From positions 63,986,001-64,050,000 of the forward strand of contig NC_086097.1 in NCBI RefSeq assembly GCF_963921235.1: a DNA stretch of 64,000 nt, in the 5' to 3' direction. Under the pieces are notes generated by a model. That model was not told the DNA's origin. It did no database searches and was given only the letters and a program-made list of their open reading frames with translations. Within the stretch, counting starts at the first letter, position 1; the number at the start of each line of letters is the position of its first letter. Shown here piece by piece: positions 766 through 59,030 of this stretch. The stretch comes from Mobula hypostoma (lineage: Eukaryota). A program made the translations under genes and the position numbers.

Positions 766-1475
766 ACAGGCTGGAAATACTATATGTCTAATTTATACTG
801 TATAGAGAAAAATACTTTAACAGATAATTTCAGTTGCTGTATTCAGTATGGTGTATGTGGTTTATTTGTGTCCAAATATCCGGACCTGCCTCTCGGTTTT
901 TTTGCACTACCTTACTTTCCATTTTTCTATTTTCTACTTATGATTTAGAATTTAAAATTTTAATATTTACTAATTTTTACTATTTTTACTATTTTTAATA
1001 TTTAATATTTGTAACCCAGGGAGTGGGAAGCGCAGAATCAAATATCGCTGTGATGTTTGTACGTTCTAGTATCAATAGTTTGGCGACAATAAAGTATAAA
1101 GTTTTATATGGGGTTGTACTCTTTCCAACAATCATCTATTGAATCAATTCTTAACTTGGATGCTGTTGCATATTAATTAGGCAAGCTAGACAGTTAAGAA
1201 CTACAGAGAGGTTAACAATGAGGTGTAGACTAGTGAAATTCCGTCAAGGGGTTACAGGTCTGTTAAGCAGCGTAGACAGTTTAAAATAGTTTGACCAGTG
1301 GGATGAAAGAAAGCTCTGCATTCCAGCCACGTGCAGAGTTGTGAATGGCAGGAGACGGTTGTGCAGAAGAAGAGAGAGCATCAAAGGAAAGAATAGTGAA
1401 TATGTTCATGCAACTTGAACACATCCCCATTCCTTAATCATTGTTAGATCCAAATCCTGGAACTCGATACCAACA

Positions 1476-1669
1476 CACATCAAAGTTGCTGGTGAACGCA
1501 GCAGGCCAGGCAGCATCTCTAGGAAGAGGTACTGTCGACATTTCGAGCAAGGGTCTTGGCCTGAAACGTCGACTGTACCTCTTCCTAGAGATGCTGCCTG
1601 GCCTGCTGTGTTAACCAGCAACTTTTATGTGTGTTGCTTGAAATTCCAGCATCTGCAGATTTCCTCGTG
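1476..1669 (+). mobile_element. Penelope-like terminal-repeat insertion with 5' inversion (fold-back)
   Basis: Inverted arms 1471-1544 and 1563-1636; 14-bp TSD ACTCGATACCAACA at 1462-1475 and 1670-1683; same sequence as the Penelope tail at 55340-55464. Confidence 0.8.
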
Positions 1670-1967
1670 ACTCGATACCAACAGCATTGTTTGAATACCT
1701 TCAGAAAGGAACTACAGTGATTAAGTATGGCAGCTCACCATTACCTTTTTGAGGGAAGTTGGAGATTGATGATATATGTTGGCCTTGCTTGTAGTATCCT
1801 TATCTTAAACATTGAGTAAATTTAATTGCTGTACTTTAAAATATATTTAAGTTATGGGCACTCTCACACTTGACTAAAGAAATCAGGCAGTAATTATTAT
1901 TAAGGGAATGCTCTCAACATTTTTTCCAGCATCTTTCAAGACATGGGTCATTAGAAGTCACCTATCA

Positions 1968-6944: not shown

Positions 6945-7315
6945 TAGGGTATCCAAACAGGCAAACAGGTGCTGGTGGGTGCTTGAATATTACTGGAACT
7001 GGAAGATTTGAGTGAGCGGAGCAGCGCGTACTGTGTCAAACTCTCTTGACCTGTGCTTTGCAGATGATGAATTGCCCTTGGGATTTTCCACCATATGAGA
7101 ACTAAGGCTTTGACCTGCCACAGTAGCTGGCAGGTTGAGTTTTTACTATCATGGACAGTATTGGCTTTCTCACAAATCTGTCTGAATTTATCCTTCTCCA
7201 TTGCCACAGAGAGGCCAAACTCTGTTTGGAAGAACCAACATTTCATATTCCACTTGGGTCGCTTACAACCTTTTGCCTCAATGGATGCTGCTTGATCTGC
7301 TGAGTTCTGCATTTT
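6945..7315 (+). mobile_element. Old Penelope 3' fragment
   Basis: ttggaagaaccaacatttcatattccacttgggtcgcttacaacc and gatgctgcttgatctgctgagttc resemble the copies at 45830 and 54960. Confidence 0.5.
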
Positions 7316-27277: not shown

Positions 27278-27972
27278 CAGGAGATGCTTGCAGCCCCACA
27301 GCAGCCAACAGATCTATTCTACTGGTCTCCCAAACAAACGTACAGGCTGTACTTCAGACAGGTGTAGGGGAAACCTGTACTTTATTGCAATATTTTTATT
27401 TATCAGAGTCTAAATGTGTTTTAAGTTCACTTAGTTTCTATTTATTTAAATCAATCTTGTATGTAAAACTCTTCCAATATTTAGCAGATTTTGATGGAAG
27501 GTGAGTCTCCATCTCCCCGCTTGCCTCCTATCAGGACATATTGTGCCTTTCAAGATCCTACAAAGTGTTTCACTGCCAATGAATTACCTATCCTTGGAGT
27601 CATTGAAAAATCTGGAAATATAGTGGTCTTCTGCAAGAGACAGTTACAAAATAATATATCTTATATTTATTTGGATTATTTCCTTTTTTCACAAGCAGGG
27701 ATTTTCCCAAAAATATACGAAGGATTTTTGTAAAGATTTAATAGGAAGAAGAGTGTGAACTGATCTTACTAGCAGTAAAGGAGCTTGACATTCATTACTC
27801 TGAAGCCTTTGTTAGTTTTGTAATGCCCATTGTCATGTTTCAACAGTATCCCTATCATAATTAATTGTTTAGCAGAAGACAACTTAAATATACATTTGTA
27901 TGCAAATATAGAAGAATGTTTACATTAAATATGAAGCTTTAACTTTATTAATTTGCAATGTTTTTCAAACAG

Positions 27973-28121
27973 CTCCTTGACGTAGTTTCTCATCTTGCCC
28001 GACAAAACTTGCGTATCCTTGTCCTTGGGCGCAGGCACATGTTGAAAGGAACACGGAACTGGGACAAGGGCCATATGGCTGCCATACAGAAATATGCGGA
28101 CTGCTTCTTTACCTCAAATAT
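27973..28121 (+). CDS. PRORP: PRORP (mitochondrial RNase P catalytic subunit) internal coding exon, 149 nt
   Basis: Acceptor tttttcaaacag, donor gtaagt. Translates [49 protein letters not shown](I), matching the human PRORP segment [24 protein letters not shown]...CFFADDI. Confidence 0.95.
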
Positions 28122-28748
28122 GTAAGTTAAGTTTTAAAGTAATAAGTAAAAAGGAAAATTTCAGAAAAAGCTATCACCCCATCTTAGCATAAAGAATTTA
28201 ATAATTTCCAATACCAGAGTTAAAAGAAAGGTAAAGAAGGGTTGTTGGATTAATCATGCCTGTCTAATCAAGAAAACATGGTGGAGTGGGGCTATGTTTT
28301 CAGCTCTTTCAGACAGCTGGTACAGGGCAATGAGCCAAATGATTTTGTTCTTCTAAGTATAGTTTTGAAGTAATTATAAGACTATAAGACCATAAGATAT
28401 AGGAGCAGAATTAGGCCATTTGGCCCATTGAGTCTGCTCTACCATTTCATTATGTCTGATCCAATTTTCTTCTCAGCCCCAATCTCCTGTCCGCTCCCCA
28501 TAGCCCTGACCAATTAAGAAACTATCAATCTCTGCCTGAAATATACATAAAGACTTGGCCTCTGCTGCTACCTTCCACTGAATTCCACAGAATCTTCACT
28601 CTCTGGCTGAAGAGAATCCCTCTCATCTCCATCTAAAAGGATGTCTCTCTATTCTGAGGCCGTGTCCTCTGGTCTTAGACTCTCCCACCACAGGAAACAT
28701 CCTCTCTACATCCAATCTATCAAGGTCTTTCACCATTCGATAGGTTTC

Positions 28749-34380: not shown

Positions 34381-34911
34381 TAGAGGTGTGAATCAAGAGG
34401 CTGCATGTTTCCTGAATGACTTGACATTGCTCAATAAAGACCAACGTTTAAAATGTGTAACAAAGTAACTTTCCCTCCTAAATCATCTCAGATTTGCCTG
34501 TTGTTGAGCAATCTAGCAGTGCAGCTTTCTGGATTAACACATGAAAGTCGTGTGTCTTAGCTTTGTACAAGCGGATCTAATATCCACAAAATCCTGAACT
34601 ATATGTAGCACTAATCTACAACCACCACCTTTTGAATACAATTCCACAAAGCTAGATTGCATGTGAGAGATTTAATTAATGTCTTCTATCTAATTAATTG
34701 CTTCTAAGATACCACAGGGAGAGGAGAAAAAATTTACACAAGATCATAAGGCTAGCTAATTGACCTTCAAATTGACCATTACTGAACAGAAGCTAAATTT
34801 CCATTTTCCCCCTATTTGGAATGTGGAATATGCTGCAACAAAGATATTTGTGAATGTAGATACTATGTGATCTAATAAGGGCTTGTTTTGTTTTGCTTTC
34901 TCTCGATCCAG

Positions 34912-35107
34912 ATCAGAAGATGACCCTTTTCTCTTATATGCAACAATACTTTCAGGCAATCACTGTAAATTCCTTAGTAGAGACCTCATGAGGGATCATA
35001 AAGCTTGTATGCCTGACGAAACCACCCGGCGCCTGTTCTTCAAGTGGCAACGTGGACACCAGCTTGTGCTGTCAGGTTGTAATCCAGGGCACAAGATGAA
35101 ATTTGAG
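34912..35107 (+). CDS. PRORP: PRORP penultimate coding exon, 196 nt (NYN nuclease catalytic aspartates)
   Basis: Acceptor tctcgatccag, donor gtggga; phase continues from the previous exon (AT|A = Ile). Encodes [65 protein letters not shown] with intact DD and RDLMRDH motifs. Confidence 0.95.
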
Positions 35108-35369
35108 GTGGGAGCACACACTGACTTAATTTAGAAGTAAAGAATATGATGCAACCTTCTTGCATAGACTGGGAGATAGTAGGTTGCAAATGATTCTTTC
35201 AAGGGAAAATACGTAATATATTGAGCTCTAATGCGAAAAGGCAATATATTCTGAAAAGAAGTTTTGCATTTTAAACATAAATTTGAAAAAATTGAGATTA
35301 ATATTAATGTTGAGAATGCTAAGATTTGTTTTCCATTGATATTCAAATTGAAGATTGTAGCTAAATAGA

Positions 35370-44019: not shown

Positions 44020-45505
44020 ATAACAGTACTCTCCACTGTGCCGAGAAGTTGTAGTGGAGGCTATTGGGCACACATATGGTCACTTTGTAGCTGCATCCAC
44101 TACTAGCAAGAAATTTGTGCCCATAAATGGGCTGGCAAAATCCACATGAATCCTCTGCCAGGGCAATGTAGGCCATTCCCAGGAATGGAGAAGTGTTGTT
44201 CTTGGCATCTTCTGGATGTGTTGCCATCCCAAACAGTGCATGGGAAGCTGCTCAATCTGTTCATCTATCCCAGGCCACCAGACAAAGCTTCAAGCCAATC
44301 CTTTCATTTTGACCATGCATGTAGCTTCTGCAACACTTTCACTCTCAGCTTGGATAGTACAACTCTCAACCCCCACATAAGGTAATCTCCGCCAAGGGTA
44401 AGTTCATCCTGGCTCTGGTAAAGATGGAGGAAATTGAATTTCTGCTGCACATTCCAGCCATTTTGGGTGATCGTGTAAACTTGAGACAGTGTTCGGTCTT
44501 TTCTGATTTCCCTTTGGATCATCTCTGCTGTAATAGAGAGACTTTCGATTTGCATTCAGAAGAAAATATCAACAGGAGTGTCTTTTGTAAATTTGTTAGG
44601 TATTCCCTTTTCCAAGGGTAGAAGGGAGAATCCATCAGTATTTCCATGATTTAGCCATCCTCTTTAATACGATCTTGTGATTGCGTCTTCCAAGAAACAG
44701 TGCTCATCCCCACATTTGTGCTGCTGTTAGTCAAATAGCCTATCTGTGGATTGAAAATGGACACTAATAGTTGATGATCAGAAATGAAAGTAAACTCTTT
44801 CCCATACAGGTACTGGTTGAAATGTTTTACACCACAAACCAGATTCAAGGACTCTCTGTCAATCTGTGCGAAACTTTTCCCTGCAGCGGTAAGGGAAGGT
44901 GATGCAAAGTCCGTGGAGCATTCACTTCCATCACTCATGACGTGACATGGCTGCATCCATACCATAAGGCAAGGTGCCACAGGCCAGCTTCACTGGACAG
45001 CGTGGATCGTAATGTGTGAGTACAATGTCTGGCATCACCATTTCCTTTACCTCCTTACACTGCTTCGTCCATTGCCATTCTTTCCAGTCTGTAGTAATGT
45101 GTCCAAGTGGTGGAGCACAGTAGCCAGGTTTACTATAACCTGTTATAGTAACTGACAGATACTAAAAAGGACTGTGATTGTGACATGTACTGTGGCCTTG
45201 GGGATTCCAGCACTGCTTGAATTGCCTCAACACACTTGTGTATTTATTGTGCAGCAATAGTGTGACCACAGTAAGTGATATATGATGTAAAGAATTCACA
45301 CTTGCCATGTCATGCTCGGAGCCCATAACCTAAGTGTCTTTTTAACACTGTCCAGAGAGTTTGGAGATGTTCCTTGTCATCCTCATCAGTAACCATGATG
45401 TCATCCAGGTAACACTGAGTGCTTGGGCAGTCTTGCAACACCTGGTCCATTGGTTTATGCCAGAGTGCAGGTGCCGATGCTACTCCAGAAATAAGCCTTG
45501 GACAG
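44020..45505 (-). mobile_element. Gypsy LTR retrotransposon pol remnant
   Basis: GVASAPALW..MDQVL...CYLDDIMVT (RT); FAQIDRESL..VCGVKHFNQYLYGKEFTFISDHQ (RNase H); LMWGLRVV..KLRVKVLQKLH (integrase N-terminus). Confidence 0.82.
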
Positions 45506-46300
45506 ATACTTATCCTTGCAAGCAGAACGAGTGCCATACCTGCCCCTACACCACCTCCCTGACTACCATTCAGGGTCCTAAACAGTTCTTCCTGGTGAGG
45601 TGTCACTTCACCTGTGAGTCTGTTGGGGTTAATATTGTATTCGGTGCTCAGGTGTGGCCTCCTGTGTATCAGTGAGGCCCAAAGTAGACTGGGAGACTGC
45701 CAAGCACCTACGCTCCATCCATCAGAAAAAGCAGGATCTCCTGGTGGCCGCACACTTAAATTCTACTTCCCATTCCTATTCCGACATGTCAGTCCATGGC
45801 CTCCTCTACTGCTGCGATGAGGTCACACTCAAGTTGGAGGACCAACACCTTATATTCTGTCTGGGTAGCCTCCAACCTGATGGCACGAACATCAATTTTT
45901 GGAACTTTTTGTAATGCCCCCCAACTTCACCATTCCTATTCCCATTCCCCCCCCACCTCATTTCCTTACCACCTTCTGGTGCTCCTCCTCCTTTCCTTTC
46001 TTCCATGGTCTTCTACCCTCTCCTATCAGATTCCTCCTTCTCCAGCCCTTTATTTCTTTCACCAATCAGCTTCCCAGACCTTTACTTCACCCCTCCCCCT
46101 CCCCTGGTTTCATCTCTCTCCTACCACCTTTCTCCCCTCCCCCCACCTCCTTGTTCTAATCTTTATTCCGGTCCTAATGAAGGGTCTTGACCCAAAACGT
46201 CAACTGCTTTTTCTTTTCCATAGATGCTGCCTGTCCTGCTAAGTTCCTCCAGCATTTTGTGTGTGTTGCTTTGGATTTCTAACATCTGCAGATTTTCTCA
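45506..46300 (+). mobile_element. Penelope-like element 3' part (GIY-YIG region plus terminal repeat)
   Basis: YPCKQNECHTCPY...HFTCESVG, CGLLCISEAQSRLGD, LEDQHLIFCLGSLQPDG; pyrimidine tract; decayed ribozyme motif at 46171-46204. Confidence 0.82.
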
Positions 46301-53124: not shown

Positions 53125-53412
<288 letters not shown>

Positions 53413-53624: not shown

Positions 53625-53774
<150 letters not shown>

Positions 53775-54485: not shown

Positions 54486-54798
54486 TTATCTGTGAGGACC
54501 TAACCTGGAACACTAGAAAATTTTGGACAAGAAGAGGCCATTTGACCCAATAGAGCTTGCCAATTTCCAATTCACACAGCATTGAAATAACTATCAAGTT
54601 TAGATTTGAAAGTTTCTGGGGTACACTTCTCAACTACACAACTAGGTAGTTTCTTCCATGTGTCCACAACTCACTGTGTAAAGAAATGCTTCCTGATGTT
54701 AGTCTGAAATTTCCCTTTACTGGTCTGTCCTATGGCCCTGTGTCCTTGATGATGAATTAATTTTGAAGTAGCAACTGGCATCCAACTTACTTATACCC

Positions 54799-55464
54799 CC
54801 CGCAGACTGGGAGACCGCTTTGCTGAACATCTACGCTCTGTCCGCCAGAGAAAGCAGGATCTCCCAGTGGCCACACATTTTAATTCCACATCCCATTCCC
54901 ATTCTGACATGTCTATCCACGGCCTCCTCTACTGTGAAGATGAAGCCACACTCAGGTTGGAGGAACAACACCTTATATTCCGTCTGGGTAGCTTCCAACC
55001 TGATGGCATGAACATTGACTTCTCTAACTTCCGCTAGGCCCCACCTCCCCCTCGTACCCCATCTGTTACTCATTTTTATGCACACATTCTTTCTCTCACT
55101 CTCCTTTTTCTCCCTCTGTCCCTCTGAATATACCTCTTGCCCATCCTCTGGGTCACCCCCCCCCCCCGTCTTTCTTCCCGGACCTCCTGTCCCATGATCC
55201 TCTCGTATCCCCTTTTGCCTATCACCTGTCCAGCTCTCGGCTCTATCCCTCCCCCTCCTGTCTTCTCCTATCATTTTGCATCTCCCCCTCCCCCTCCAGC
55301 TTTCAAATCCCTTACTCACTCTTCCTTCAGTTACTCCTGACGAAGGGTCTCGGCCTGAAACGTCGACTGCGCCTCTTCCTATAGATGCTGCCTGGCCTGC
55401 TGCGTTCACCAGCAACTTTTATGTGTGTTGCTTGAATTTCCAGCATCTGCAGAATTCCTGTTGT
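54799..55464 (+). mobile_element. Young Penelope-like 3' fragment
   Basis: RRLGDRFAEHLRS...LEEQHLIFRLGSFQPDGMNIDF (GIY-YIG C-terminus), pyrimidine tract, terminal repeat; 12-bp TSD TTACTTATACCC at 54787-54798 and 55465-55476. Confidence 0.88.
55333..55368 (+). ncRNA. Minimal type I hammerhead ribozyme motif (Penelope-associated)
   Basis: ACTC-CTGACGA-AGG(GTCTCGG)CCT-GAAA-CG-TC^GACT: CUGANGA and GAAA core, 3-bp stem II, palindromic ACGU stem III, GUC cleavage triplet, stem I with one mismatch. Confidence 0.65.
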
Positions 55465-57019
55465 TTACTTATACCCTTAATGGTTTTGAACACTTCTATC
55501 ATGTCTCCTCTCATTCTATGTCTTCTTAGGCTAAAAGGATTGAATTCTTTCAATCCTTCATTGCTCATACCCCACAGACCTGGAATGAGTCTTGTCACCC
55601 TTCTCTGAGCTCTTTACAATGCTACCTGTTATGGTTTGTACAGCACTTTGGTCAACATGGGTTGTTTTTAAAAGTGCTTTATAAATAAATTTGACTTGAC
55701 TTGACTTCACATCCCTCACACAATATGGACTACAAAATTGTACACGGTGTTCAAGGTGTGGCTCACAAGCGTATTAAACAATTTAAGGAGAACATCTCTG
55801 GACTTGAACTCCATTGAGCACATTATATAGGCCAACATTCTTTCAGCCTTCCTGATTGCTTCTGTGCGGTGTCTAGATGTTGATCATGATGAGTCTATCA
55901 GGACGCCCAAATCCTGCTCATGCAGTGCACTTTCTAACTCAAGACCCTACATTGTATATTTATATCTTAATATTTCTTCTTCCTATATATAATACTTTAC
56001 GTTTACTTACATTAAATTTAATCTGCCATTTATCTGCCCACACCTGATTTTGTTCATTCTAGCTGTATTGATTCTGCTGCCTGAATGTTATCAGCCCATC
56101 TCCCTACTTTTGTGTCATCAACAGACTTTACTTGTTTATTTGTTACATGCTTATCCAAATCATTAATGTAAATTAAAAGCAGCAGTGGCCCCAAAACTGA
56201 TACCTGTGGAACCCCACTTTTAACATCTTCTAGGTGTGAAAATGATCCTTTCACCATAACTTGTTGTTTTCTCTTTATGAGCCAATTCGCACACATTACC
56301 CTAAACCTCTACCTCCTGTAATTTGATTACTAACCTCTTGTGGGATACCTTGTCAAAAACCTTCTGAAAGTCCAAATAAATTATATCAACTACTCTATTG
56401 TCATAAATTATAGTTGCCTCTTCAATAAAACTCCAGCATATTGGTAAAACATGATTTCCCCTTTCTGAACCCATGCTGGCTTTCTGCTAACATGCCTCTT
56501 CTTAGCTGCTTTTCCATCTCATTCTTATTATTGTTTCCATTATCTTACCTGCAATACACGTTAAGCTTACTGGCCTATAGTTATCAGGGTCACCCTTCTT
56601 GTATACCGGGACAACATTAGCCCGTTTCCAGTCTTTAGAGATTTCACCAGTTTTCACTGACTTGAAAAATACATATTAGGGATTTGTATATATAATCAGA
56701 CCTCTTTAAGTACCCTTGGATATATGTTGTCTGGCCCTGGAGATTTATTAACTTTCAACCTTTTCATCTGAAGCAGGACCTCAATTTCTAAGACCTCTAA
56801 GTCATTTAAAACAACCTTATTTTTCTCTACACTTACTAGCATATTGCTAACATTTTCAGAGGTGAATACTTTAGCAAAATATGAGTTAAGAGTATCTGCT
56901 GTGTCCTTCTCTGCGTAATTTAACAGCCCACTATTATTCATAGCACACTTAACTTCCTCCGTGACTTTTCTTTTAGTACCAAAGTATTGGGAAAGTTCTG
57001 TTGAGGTCAGTTTTAGTAT

Positions 57020-58948: not shown

Positions 58949-59030
58949 GATAAACTTTTGGATGCCAAAACAGTCACTCATCTTTTCAGAGTAACTGAAA
59001 AGATAGGATGTGTAATGACAGGAATGACAG
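58949..59030 (+). CDS. PSMA6: PSMA6 exon 3
   Basis: Acceptor ttttctcag, donor gtaata; [27 protein letters not shown](A), 82 nt. Confidence 0.96.

What the first reader, a model, noticed from the sequence alone, without database searches (positions are those of the whole stretch)
55333..55368. Minimal hammerhead ribozyme in a Penelope terminal repeat, sense to the PSMA6 pre-mRNA
Seen: CTGACGA (55337-43), stem II AGG/CCT, GAAA (55357-60), then CGTC^GACT, with stem I ACTC/GACT (one C-C mismatch). Stem III is the loopless palindrome ACGU, which can only pair in a dimer. Established: Penelope-like elements carry minimal type I hammerheads that cleave as dimers. Inference: the motif is transcribed within PSMA6 intron 2 and could cleave after 55364 only with a partner copy, in cis or in trans. 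A decayed copy (CTAATGA...AAAACGTC) at 46171-46204 and a truncated one at about 1549-1574 show that the motif is family-wide.
Basis: partly seen in the sequence, partly recalled or inferred. Interest (0 to 1): 0.7.

Follow-up and report, generated by a model that had tools for sequence, protein, structure and literature searches.

The report
Damaged Penelope hammerhead in PSMA6 intron
This is a real copy of the tiny self-cutting RNA motif that Penelope-type jumping genes are already known to carry, left by a shortened insertion in an intron of a proteasome gene of what is likely a ray; it carries a damaging change of its own and has no intact partner in the window, so it likely does not cut the host RNA and is ordinary.

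Summary
The motif is real at 55332-55369, the only descriptor match in the window (3 matches in 500 shuffles). It lies in the 3' pseudo-LTR of a 666-base, 5'-truncated Penelope-like insertion (54799-55464, 12-base target duplication). The endonuclease tail is 92% identical to a Mobula element with a Neptune-type linker. It is sense in PSMA6 intron 2. It fits the published minimal, dimer-type hammerhead (PMC4209133): a new member of a known kind. Corrections: stem II reads better one base shifted (bulged A55344, GGGU/GCCU). The stem I mismatch is this copy's own: 97-99.9% of family depth has G at 55334. It costs about 6 kcal/mol per copy in the predicted active dimer. The other two copies are broken and lie outside PSMA6. 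CpG decay hits core and loop at similar rates. The copy is most likely an inert relic. One weak lead: 4-5 of 12 listed rearrangement joints (31 in all) leave the family at the cut site, possibly a footprint of cleavage in vivo.

The parts
55332..55369 (+). Minimal type I hammerhead motif: stem I 5' arm 55332-36 (TACTC; family majority TAGTC), core CTGACGA 55337-43, bulged A55344, stem II 55345-48/55353-56 with loop 55349-52, GAAA 55357-60, palindromic stem III ACGT 55360-63, predicted cut after C55364, stem I 3' arm GACTG 55365-69
   Evidence: fits the consensus line of Fig. S3 in the PMC4209133 supplement
55334..55334 (+). Private C where the family has G; breaks the middle pair of stem I and also removes an AG that follows a pyrimidine tract
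   Evidence: table 3: G in 97.1, 98.4, 99.95 and 99.9% of depth in X1, X2, X9, X16 (shares computed)
54799..55464 (+). 5'-truncated Penelope-like element, 666 bases: endonuclease tail, pyrimidine-rich 3' region, hammerhead, tail
   Evidence: joint 54786>55465 skipping 678 bases with 12 letters fitting on both sides
54787..54798 (+). Left target-site duplication (12 bases)
55465..55476 (+). Right target-site duplication (12 bases)
54801..55037 (+). C-terminal 78 codons and stop of the GIY-YIG endonuclease of the element's ORF
   Evidence: 72 of 78 residues identical to P0002; P0002 hits Pfam GIY-YIG weakly, E 4.6e-4, below the curated cut-off
55431..55464 (+). Optional 35-base 'tail' between the two family 3' ends (about 55430 and 55466), 66 and about 100 bases past the predicted cut
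   Evidence: table 7 (loose ends at 55466 in all four runs, at 55430/31 in X9 and X16); inverted arm of copy C ends at the equivalent of 55430 (pair I19); tail described in PMC8557442 and PMC11167929
53751..58948 (+). PSMA6 intron 2, the host intron (cut site 1,614 bases after the 5' splice site)
   Evidence: exon ends read; identity
45510..46300 (+). Copy B: older 5'-truncated copy of a sister subfamily (ends approximate, no target duplication found). It keeps the CX4CxxC linker codons; its hammerhead relic 46169-46206 has G5>A, G12>A and G1.1>A. It lies about 7 kb before the PSMA6 start codon
1476..1669 (+). Copy C: inverted plus direct pseudo-LTR pieces forming a long hairpin, flanked by a 14-base duplication (1462-75, 1670-83); neither arm has CUGANGA
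   Evidence: pair I18; z -16

Best explanation
The motif is the minimal, dimer-type hammerhead of a very abundant Penelope-like retrotransposon family, carried into PSMA6 intron 2 on a 5'-truncated insertion, and this copy is most likely an inert relic that does not cut the host RNA. Shown: the anatomy, the insertion limits and duplication, the family's G at 55334, and the lack of an intact second copy in the window. Inferred, for the active element: tandem pseudo-LTRs put two motifs on one transcript. Their ACGU palindromes pair, and each copy's 5' half (stem I arm, core, stem II, GAAA) cuts the other copy's GUC/GACU half, probably with help from the element's own protein. New copies are likely made mainly from uncut RNA, with reverse transcription starting 66 or about 100 bases past the cut site, which is why all three copies run on past 55364. 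After insertion the copy decays like any repeat. The G>C at 55334 is one of at least 6-14 differences from the family majority and cripples its enzyme half. Its substrate half (ACGUC/GACUG) is intact, so rare cutting by an intact partner in trans is not excluded, but such cutting would likely be too slow to affect splicing.
For: Descriptor match far above chance. Endonuclease tail 88% and 92% identical to Hypanus and Mobula ORFs. Target duplication, tail and an inverted pseudo-LTR, all Penelope hallmarks (PMC8557442 passages). 22,083 and 31,075 contigs of two DNA runs lay on the 89 bases around the motif (not a copy number). Private stem I break. Nearest-neighbour energy of the active dimer: family majority -11.9, with C55356 -17.1, one damaged copy -5.7, two damaged copies +0.5 kcal/mol; all lie far above the competing minimum folds. 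In native context the 5' side of stem II pairs upstream (p 0.96) and stem I is unpaired. CpG transitions in DNA runs X1/X2: core G8 4.6/5.1%, G12 5.4/3.2%, stem III 7-11%, C17 9.1/6.8%, loop II 8-11%, so inserted copies are not protected. Single motifs did not cleave and dimers did so weakly (PMC4209133). The Anolis motif needs protein, cleavage is not needed for insertion, and no RNA-seq reads ended at the cut (PMC11167929).
Against: Energies leave out tertiary core contacts and proteins, and the family-majority monomer also prefers an inactive rod, so folding alone cannot rule activity out. G8 and G12 show about half the CpG change of loop II (G12 is a CpG only in the C55356 variant), which might reflect some constraint. 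One search is blind near its ends (it misses 55334 and 55382, which one search lists), so core positions 55337-55341 were not assessed. PSMA6 runs on beyond 64000, so a downstream partner in cis is not excluded. Between copies A and B the motif (28 of 40 columns) is no better kept than the 3' flank (68 of 96), though better than the 5' flank (20 of 47) (one decayed pair).
Confidence: 0.85

Rival explanations
1. Trans-cleaved intron: the copy serves as the substrate half of a heterodimer with an intact family RNA, with or without the element's protein, and PSMA6 pre-mRNA is cut after 55364 often enough to lower or alter PSMA6 output when the family is expressed.
For: The substrate half 55360-55369 is intact, and the private change hits only the 5' arm. 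The family is very abundant. Protein-assisted cleavage is shown for the Anolis element (PMC11167929).
Against: Only 9 intermolecular pairs hold the cutting junction. The heterodimer is 14 kcal/mol above the two monomer folds. Slow hammerhead cleavage in an intron left splicing intact (PMC2995048 passages). No sign of selection on this copy.
Confidence: 0.07
2. Purged copy: the insertion was harmful while intact (it cut the intron, or offered a 3' splice site at AG 55333-34), and the G>C at 55334 was selected to disarm it.
For: One change removes both the central stem I pair and an AG behind a pyrimidine tract with branch-like CTTAC/CTCAC. The sister subfamily also has CCAG directly before TCCTGA (loose ends). 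In D. virilis the Penelope intron ends at helix I (PMC4209133). Retrozymes are depleted in Xenopus introns (bioRxiv 10.64898/2026.07.22.740005).
Against: With 6-14 differences from the majority over 666 bases (rows shown), one falling in the 36-base motif has about 28-54% chance. A second AG (55329-30) is left intact. Copies B and C outside PSMA6 are broken too.
Confidence: 0.05
3. Not a ribozyme: the motif is a protein-binding or promoter part of the pseudo-LTR that only resembles a hammerhead.
For: The motif is no better kept than the 3' flank between copies A and B. Craig et al. note that the role of these motifs is unclear (PMC8557442).
Against: Every core position, the bulged base, the palindrome and a 5-pair stem I are present in the family majority. 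Subfamily changes keep the pairs (U-G to C-G in stem I, U-G to U-A and G-U to G-C in stem II). Homologous motifs cleave in vitro (PMC4209133, PMC11167929).
Confidence: 0.03

Closest known systems
Minimal hammerheads (min-HHR) in pseudo-LTRs of metazoan Penelope-like elements (Cervera and De la Pena 2014, PMC4209133; Lunse et al. 2017, seen only as a reference entry)
   Same: CUGANGA plus one unpaired base, G-opened helix II, GAAA, two-base palindromic helix III, UH cut site, short helix I, U/C-rich 5' flank, mostly single copies from truncated elements; inverted second pieces nearby.
   Different: From a batoid fish; the part of their alignment I read has no cartilaginous fish and the supplement search found no shark or skate term (file 1 not searched). 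Helix II is short (4 pairs, G-U at 10.1-11.1 in this subfamily). This copy has a broken helix I.
Poseidon element of Anolis carolinensis (PAc; Frangieh et al. 2024, PMC11167929)
   Same: Hammerhead in the pseudo-LTR; two 3' ends about 35 bases apart some way past the cut site, defining the tail; copies run on past the cut.
   Different: PAc is Penelope/Poseidon clade and its ORF starts inside the ribozyme. This family has the Neptune-type CX4CxxC linker, and the ATGs at 55384 and 55421 run into a stop within the tail (read).
Non-LTR retrozymes (PMC7229834, listing only; bioRxiv 10.64898/2026.07.22.740005)
   Same: Type I hammerhead of Penelope origin.
   Different: Those are non-coding tandem repeats with a ribozyme in each unit; this is a single copy attached to an endonuclease remnant.
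Conserved intronic ribozymes (CPEB3 HDV-like; amniote intronic hammerheads; PMC6765202 passage)
   Same: Self-cleaving motif sense in a host intron.
   Different: Those are single-copy, conserved across species and able to fold alone (recalled). This is one of a huge repeat family, recent, damaged and dimer-dependent.

Membership tests
min-HHR of metazoan PLEs (family motif) | Core CUGANGA followed by one unpaired base | tested here: met
   CTGACGA + A55344 (consensus)
min-HHR of metazoan PLEs (family motif) | Helix II opened by G10.1 paired with a pyrimidine at 11.1 (mostly C) | tested here: met
   G55345-U55356 here; C in 19-28% of depth and in copy B; G-U also in published rows such as Latimeria(1) and Xenopus(1)
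min-HHR of metazoan PLEs (family motif) | GAAA, palindromic 15.2-16.2, no loop III, UH cut site | tested here: met
   GAAA-CG-TC at 55357-64
min-HHR of metazoan PLEs (family motif) | Short helix I of 3-5 pairs in the family majority | tested here: met
   G at 55334 in 97-99.9% of depth gives TAGTC/GACTG; sister subfamily CAGTC/GACTG (loose ends)
min-HHR of metazoan PLEs (family motif) | Located in the pseudo-LTR of a PLE | tested here: met
   300 bases after the endonuclease stop, before the tail
min-HHR of metazoan PLEs (family motif) | Self-cleavage as a dimer, not as a monomer | not testable with these tools
   needs in vitro assay; energies only
Cleavage-competent min-HHR (this copy) | Unbroken helix I | tested here: not met
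   2 pairs, C-C mismatch, 2 pairs
Cleavage-competent min-HHR (this copy) | Intact partner on the same transcript | tested here: inconclusive
   none in 53.3-64 kb; the rest of PSMA6 lies beyond the window and no genome is held
EN+ Penelope-like element | RT followed by C-terminal GIY-YIG endonuclease with CCHH motif | tested here: met
   seen in relatives P0002, P0004 (YIDD-type RT motif, VIYCVRCSRC..YIGET, two His; Pfam GIY-YIG weak); the window holds only the last 78 codons
EN+ Penelope-like element | Pseudo-LTR, optional 30-40 base tail, inverted 5' pieces | tested here: met
   ends at 55430 and 55466; inverted copy C
Neptune clade | CX2-5CxxC zinc-finger-like linker between RT and EN | tested here: met
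   CX4CxxC in P0001, P0002 and in copy B; definition from PMC8557442
Neptune clade | RT phylogeny groups with Neptune rather than Nematis | not tested
Non-LTR retrozyme | Tandem non-coding units each with a hammerhead | tested here: not met
   single motif attached to an ORF remnant
Conserved host intronic ribozyme | Kept at the orthologous place across species | tested here: inconclusive
   no listed contig of X1, X2, X9, X16 bridged an insertion junction with few differences (tables cut); only about 1-2% from the family majority, so recent
Rfam hammerhead families | Covariance model match | tested here: not met
   no hammerhead family at E up to 1 in the window; expected, since helix III is missing in a monomer

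The most novel reading that the evidence does not exclude
The family's ribozyme does cut in vivo, and cut RNA ends are captured by the element's reverse transcriptase: 4-5 of the 12 joints listed (31 in all; all five from run X1) leave the repeat at 55363/55364, the cut site, and rejoin upstream. If so, and if intact element RNA plus its protein can cut the substrate half of scattered copies in trans, the many sense-intronic copies in ray genes, this PSMA6 one included, would be latent cut sites switched on whenever the element is expressed. I put about 0.25 on the footprint alone and much less on the effect on host introns.
Probability: 0.07. Interest if true: 0.65.

Novelty: new member of a known kind. 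Interest (0 to 1): 0.13.

Why it matters
As it stands it matters little: one damaged copy of a described motif that occurs in thousands per genome in fish, coelacanth and frog (PMC4209133). The family is a convenient test bed, though. It is young and abundant, so whether Penelope hammerheads cut in vivo, and whether selection removes intact sense-intronic copies, can be settled by counting in one ray genome. In Anolis no RNA ends were found at the cut site (PMC11167929), so a genomic footprint of cleavage would be new evidence on an open question of Penelope transposition.

Tried and rejected
No whole genome is held, so the genome-wide copy search was not possible. Rfam gave no hammerhead hit; its mir-5681 hit at 1523-1584 (40 bits, gathering 88) is only the copy C hairpin. 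Exact motif patterns found nothing in metagenome contigs or viral contigs. The look-up of sequencing runs: no RNA holder listed; the runs marked 'RNA?' are guesses kept as contigs and cannot show RNA ends, strand or level, so RNA ends at 55364 were not tested. The joint 54786>55465 fixes the insertion limits but was not taken as an empty orthologous allele: the flank is itself a repeat and the listed pieces differ by about 10%. Of 29 metagenome loci with distant relatives, 4 reach the endonuclease; a relaxed descriptor found 1 minimal hammerhead in the 29 (L013, opposite strand) and none after those 4 endonucleases, so they gave no covariation set. Pfam missed the 78-residue endonuclease piece; the blank for exon 1 was my frame slip. 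A cis partnership with copies B or C was rejected: both are broken and lie before the PSMA6 start. One joint at 55364 (letters AACAT) is probably CpG decay with a true end near 55367, hence '4-5'. Lunse et al. 2017 is not held and was not read. Searches 'Penelope + hammerhead + elasmobranch' and 'Penelope + transposable elements + stingray' gave 0 papers; 'Penelope + hammerhead + cleavage site + template switch' gave 3, none on this point by title or abstract start. The library lacks most subscription papers, and Repbase and Dfam were not available, so this is no proof that the family is undescribed. No structure or complex prediction was run.

Full report
Observation. The letters are as described. 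A minimal type I hammerhead descriptor finds exactly one match in the 64 kb on both strands, at core position 55337, against 3 matches in 500 dinucleotide-preserving shuffles. A more relaxed descriptor also finds only this one. Rfam has no hammerhead match at E up to 1, as expected for a motif without helix III. The host gene is PSMA6 on the + strand: coding exon 1 53332-53407, exon 2 53656-53750, exon 3 58949-59030, exon 4 from 59434. Exon 4 hits Pfam Proteasome (E 1.1e-10) and human alpha type-6 at 48 of 49 residues. The motif is sense in intron 2, 1,614 bases after the 5' splice site. Two PRORP exons lie upstream on the same strand (27952-28122, 34871-35131, which scanned 148 of 177 plus-strand frames).

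The element. The motif sits in a 666-base insertion, 54799-55464, between 12-base target duplications; contigs that skip it join 54786 to 55465 with 12 letters fitting both sides. Its first 234 bases encode the end of a GIY-YIG endonuclease. Of 75 candidates, 16 proteins matched; the best are from Hypanus sabinus (88%) and Mobula hypostoma (92%, 72 of 78), so the host is likely a ray (inference). These relatives carry an RT, a CX4CxxC linker and the CCHH endonuclease motif (Pfam GIY-YIG weak, E 4.6e-4), which by PMC8557442 (passages) points to the Neptune clade; I built no tree. Family copies end at about 55466 (loose ends in all four runs) and at 55430/31 (X9, X16) (24 of 3,145 rows shown), that is 66 and about 100 bases past the predicted cut. 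This matches the optional 30-40 base tail of Penelope-like elements (PMC8557442, Fig. 2 legend) and the two internal start sites of reverse transcription in the Anolis element (PMC11167929, parts 1-2 of 4 read). Copy C is an inverted-plus-direct pseudo-LTR pair with a 14-base duplication, a typical Penelope 5' structure; its inverted arm stops at the 55430 end and neither arm has CUGANGA. Copy B is an older sister-subfamily copy with G5, G12 and G1.1 changed to A. Both lie before the PSMA6 start.

The ribozyme. The motif fits the published consensus for minimal hammerheads (PMC4209133, parts 1-2 of 4 and part 2 of 3 of supplement file 2 read; file 1 could not be searched). With the published register, A55344 is unpaired and helix II is GGGU/GCCU around CUCG. 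The C-C mismatch is this copy's own: G stands at 55334 in 97.1-99.95% of depth in four runs, giving a 5-pair helix I. A sister subfamily seen in the loose ends differs on both sides of the motif but keeps helix I as CAGTC/GACTG. Against special conservation: copy A versus B identity is 28 of 40 columns in the motif, 68 of 96 in the 3' flank and 20 of 47 in the 5' flank. Between 55342 and 55373 all 12 listed variants at 3% or more are transitions at CpG-type sites, and they hit core, stem III and the cut site about as often as loop II, G8 and G12 about half as often. That is neutral decay of inserted copies; selection would act only on the active line. One search did not list 55334 or 55382, which one search lists, so it is blind near its ends and says nothing on 55337-55341. 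Whether organisms A and B are the window's species is unknown (word shares 0.60-0.66), and depth is not copy number.

How it works. In the double hammerhead each active site joins one copy's 5' half (helix I arm, core, helix II, GAAA) to the other copy's GUC/GACU half (established topology, PMC4209133 Fig. 1; built). Nearest-neighbour energies of that fold: family majority -11.9 kcal/mol, with C55356 -17.1, one damaged copy -5.7, two damaged copies +0.5; the competing minimum folds are -25 to -35 (no tertiary or protein terms). In its own flanks the copy is predicted to pair 55344-48 with 55318-22 (p 0.96 for 55344-47) and to leave helix I open. The private change spoils the enzyme half but not the substrate half, so the PSMA6 RNA could in principle be cut by an intact partner, held by only 9 pairs. 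Published motifs of this kind do not cut alone and cut weakly as dimers. The Anolis motif cuts only with the element's protein, cleavage is not needed for insertion, and no RNA-seq reads ended at the site. Slow hammerhead cleavage inside an intron left splicing intact, whereas a fast ribozyme stopped it (PMC2995048, passages). Among the rows shown the copy differs from the X1 majority at 14 places (6 at over 90%), so one hit in a 36-base motif has about 28-54% chance and needs no selection. Verdict: a relic, likely inert (0.85).

Leads. First, table 5c, 5 of 12 listed joints (31 in all) leave the repeat at 55363 or 55364 and rejoin upstream; one is probably CpG decay, leaving 4. All are from X1, at low depth. 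They could be template jumps onto cleaved RNA ends (inference), or an artefact of the alignment. Second, the family has a pyrimidine tract and AG ending at 55334, in both subfamilies, where D. virilis Penelope has its intron end; splicing there was not tested.

Novelty. New member of a known kind. Three paper searches found no description in rays, which does not show that none exists. A preprint reports retrozymes in one cartilaginous fish (bioRxiv 10.64898/2026.07.22.740005, part 1 of 5 and passages; its supplements are closed and may name the family). PMC6765202 was read in passages and PMC2377424 as abstract only. Earlier notes of this scan report the same family many times in this genome; they are unchecked and are not counted as support. 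Interest 0.13.

Noticed in passing
window 1462-1683: Small Penelope insertion made only of inverted and direct pseudo-LTR pieces: a near-perfect hairpin of about 135 bases (-111.8 kcal/mol, z -16) with a 14-base target duplication; probably in a PRORP intron and a possible source of double-stranded RNA. It explains the weak Rfam mir-5681 hit.
   Followed up: partly
window 55363-55364 (table 5c, run X1): 4-5 of 12 listed rearrangement joints leave the repeat at the predicted cut site; possible footprint of cleaved RNA ends used in template jumps.
   Followed up: partly
window 55311-55334: Branch-like CTTAC/CTCAC, pyrimidine tract and AG ending at the 5' arm of helix I in both subfamilies; may be the 3' splice site of a Penelope intron, as in D. 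virilis. This copy has lost that AG but keeps CAG at 55328-30.
   Followed up: no
window 27952-28122 and 34871-35131: Two exons of PRORP (protein-only RNase P, Pfam PF16953, E 5e-14 and 7e-27) on +, upstream of PSMA6; the last exon was not located.
   Followed up: partly
window 7211-7310: A fourth, older family remnant: endonuclease tail joined almost directly to the tail region, with the hammerhead deleted.
   Followed up: no
L013, about 1570-1620, minus strand: Another minimal hammerhead (7-pair helix II, 4-pair helix I) opposite to a Penelope-type RT match in a metagenome contig.
   Followed up: no
P0004, P0005, P0007: Hypanus gene models named after host genes include long pieces of this element's ORF; either annotation errors or exonised copies.
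   Followed up: no
window 44654-45762, minus strand: Copy B is inserted in a decayed LTR-retrotransposon-like pol fragment (RT-like YLDD motif in the translation; label from recall).
   Followed up: no
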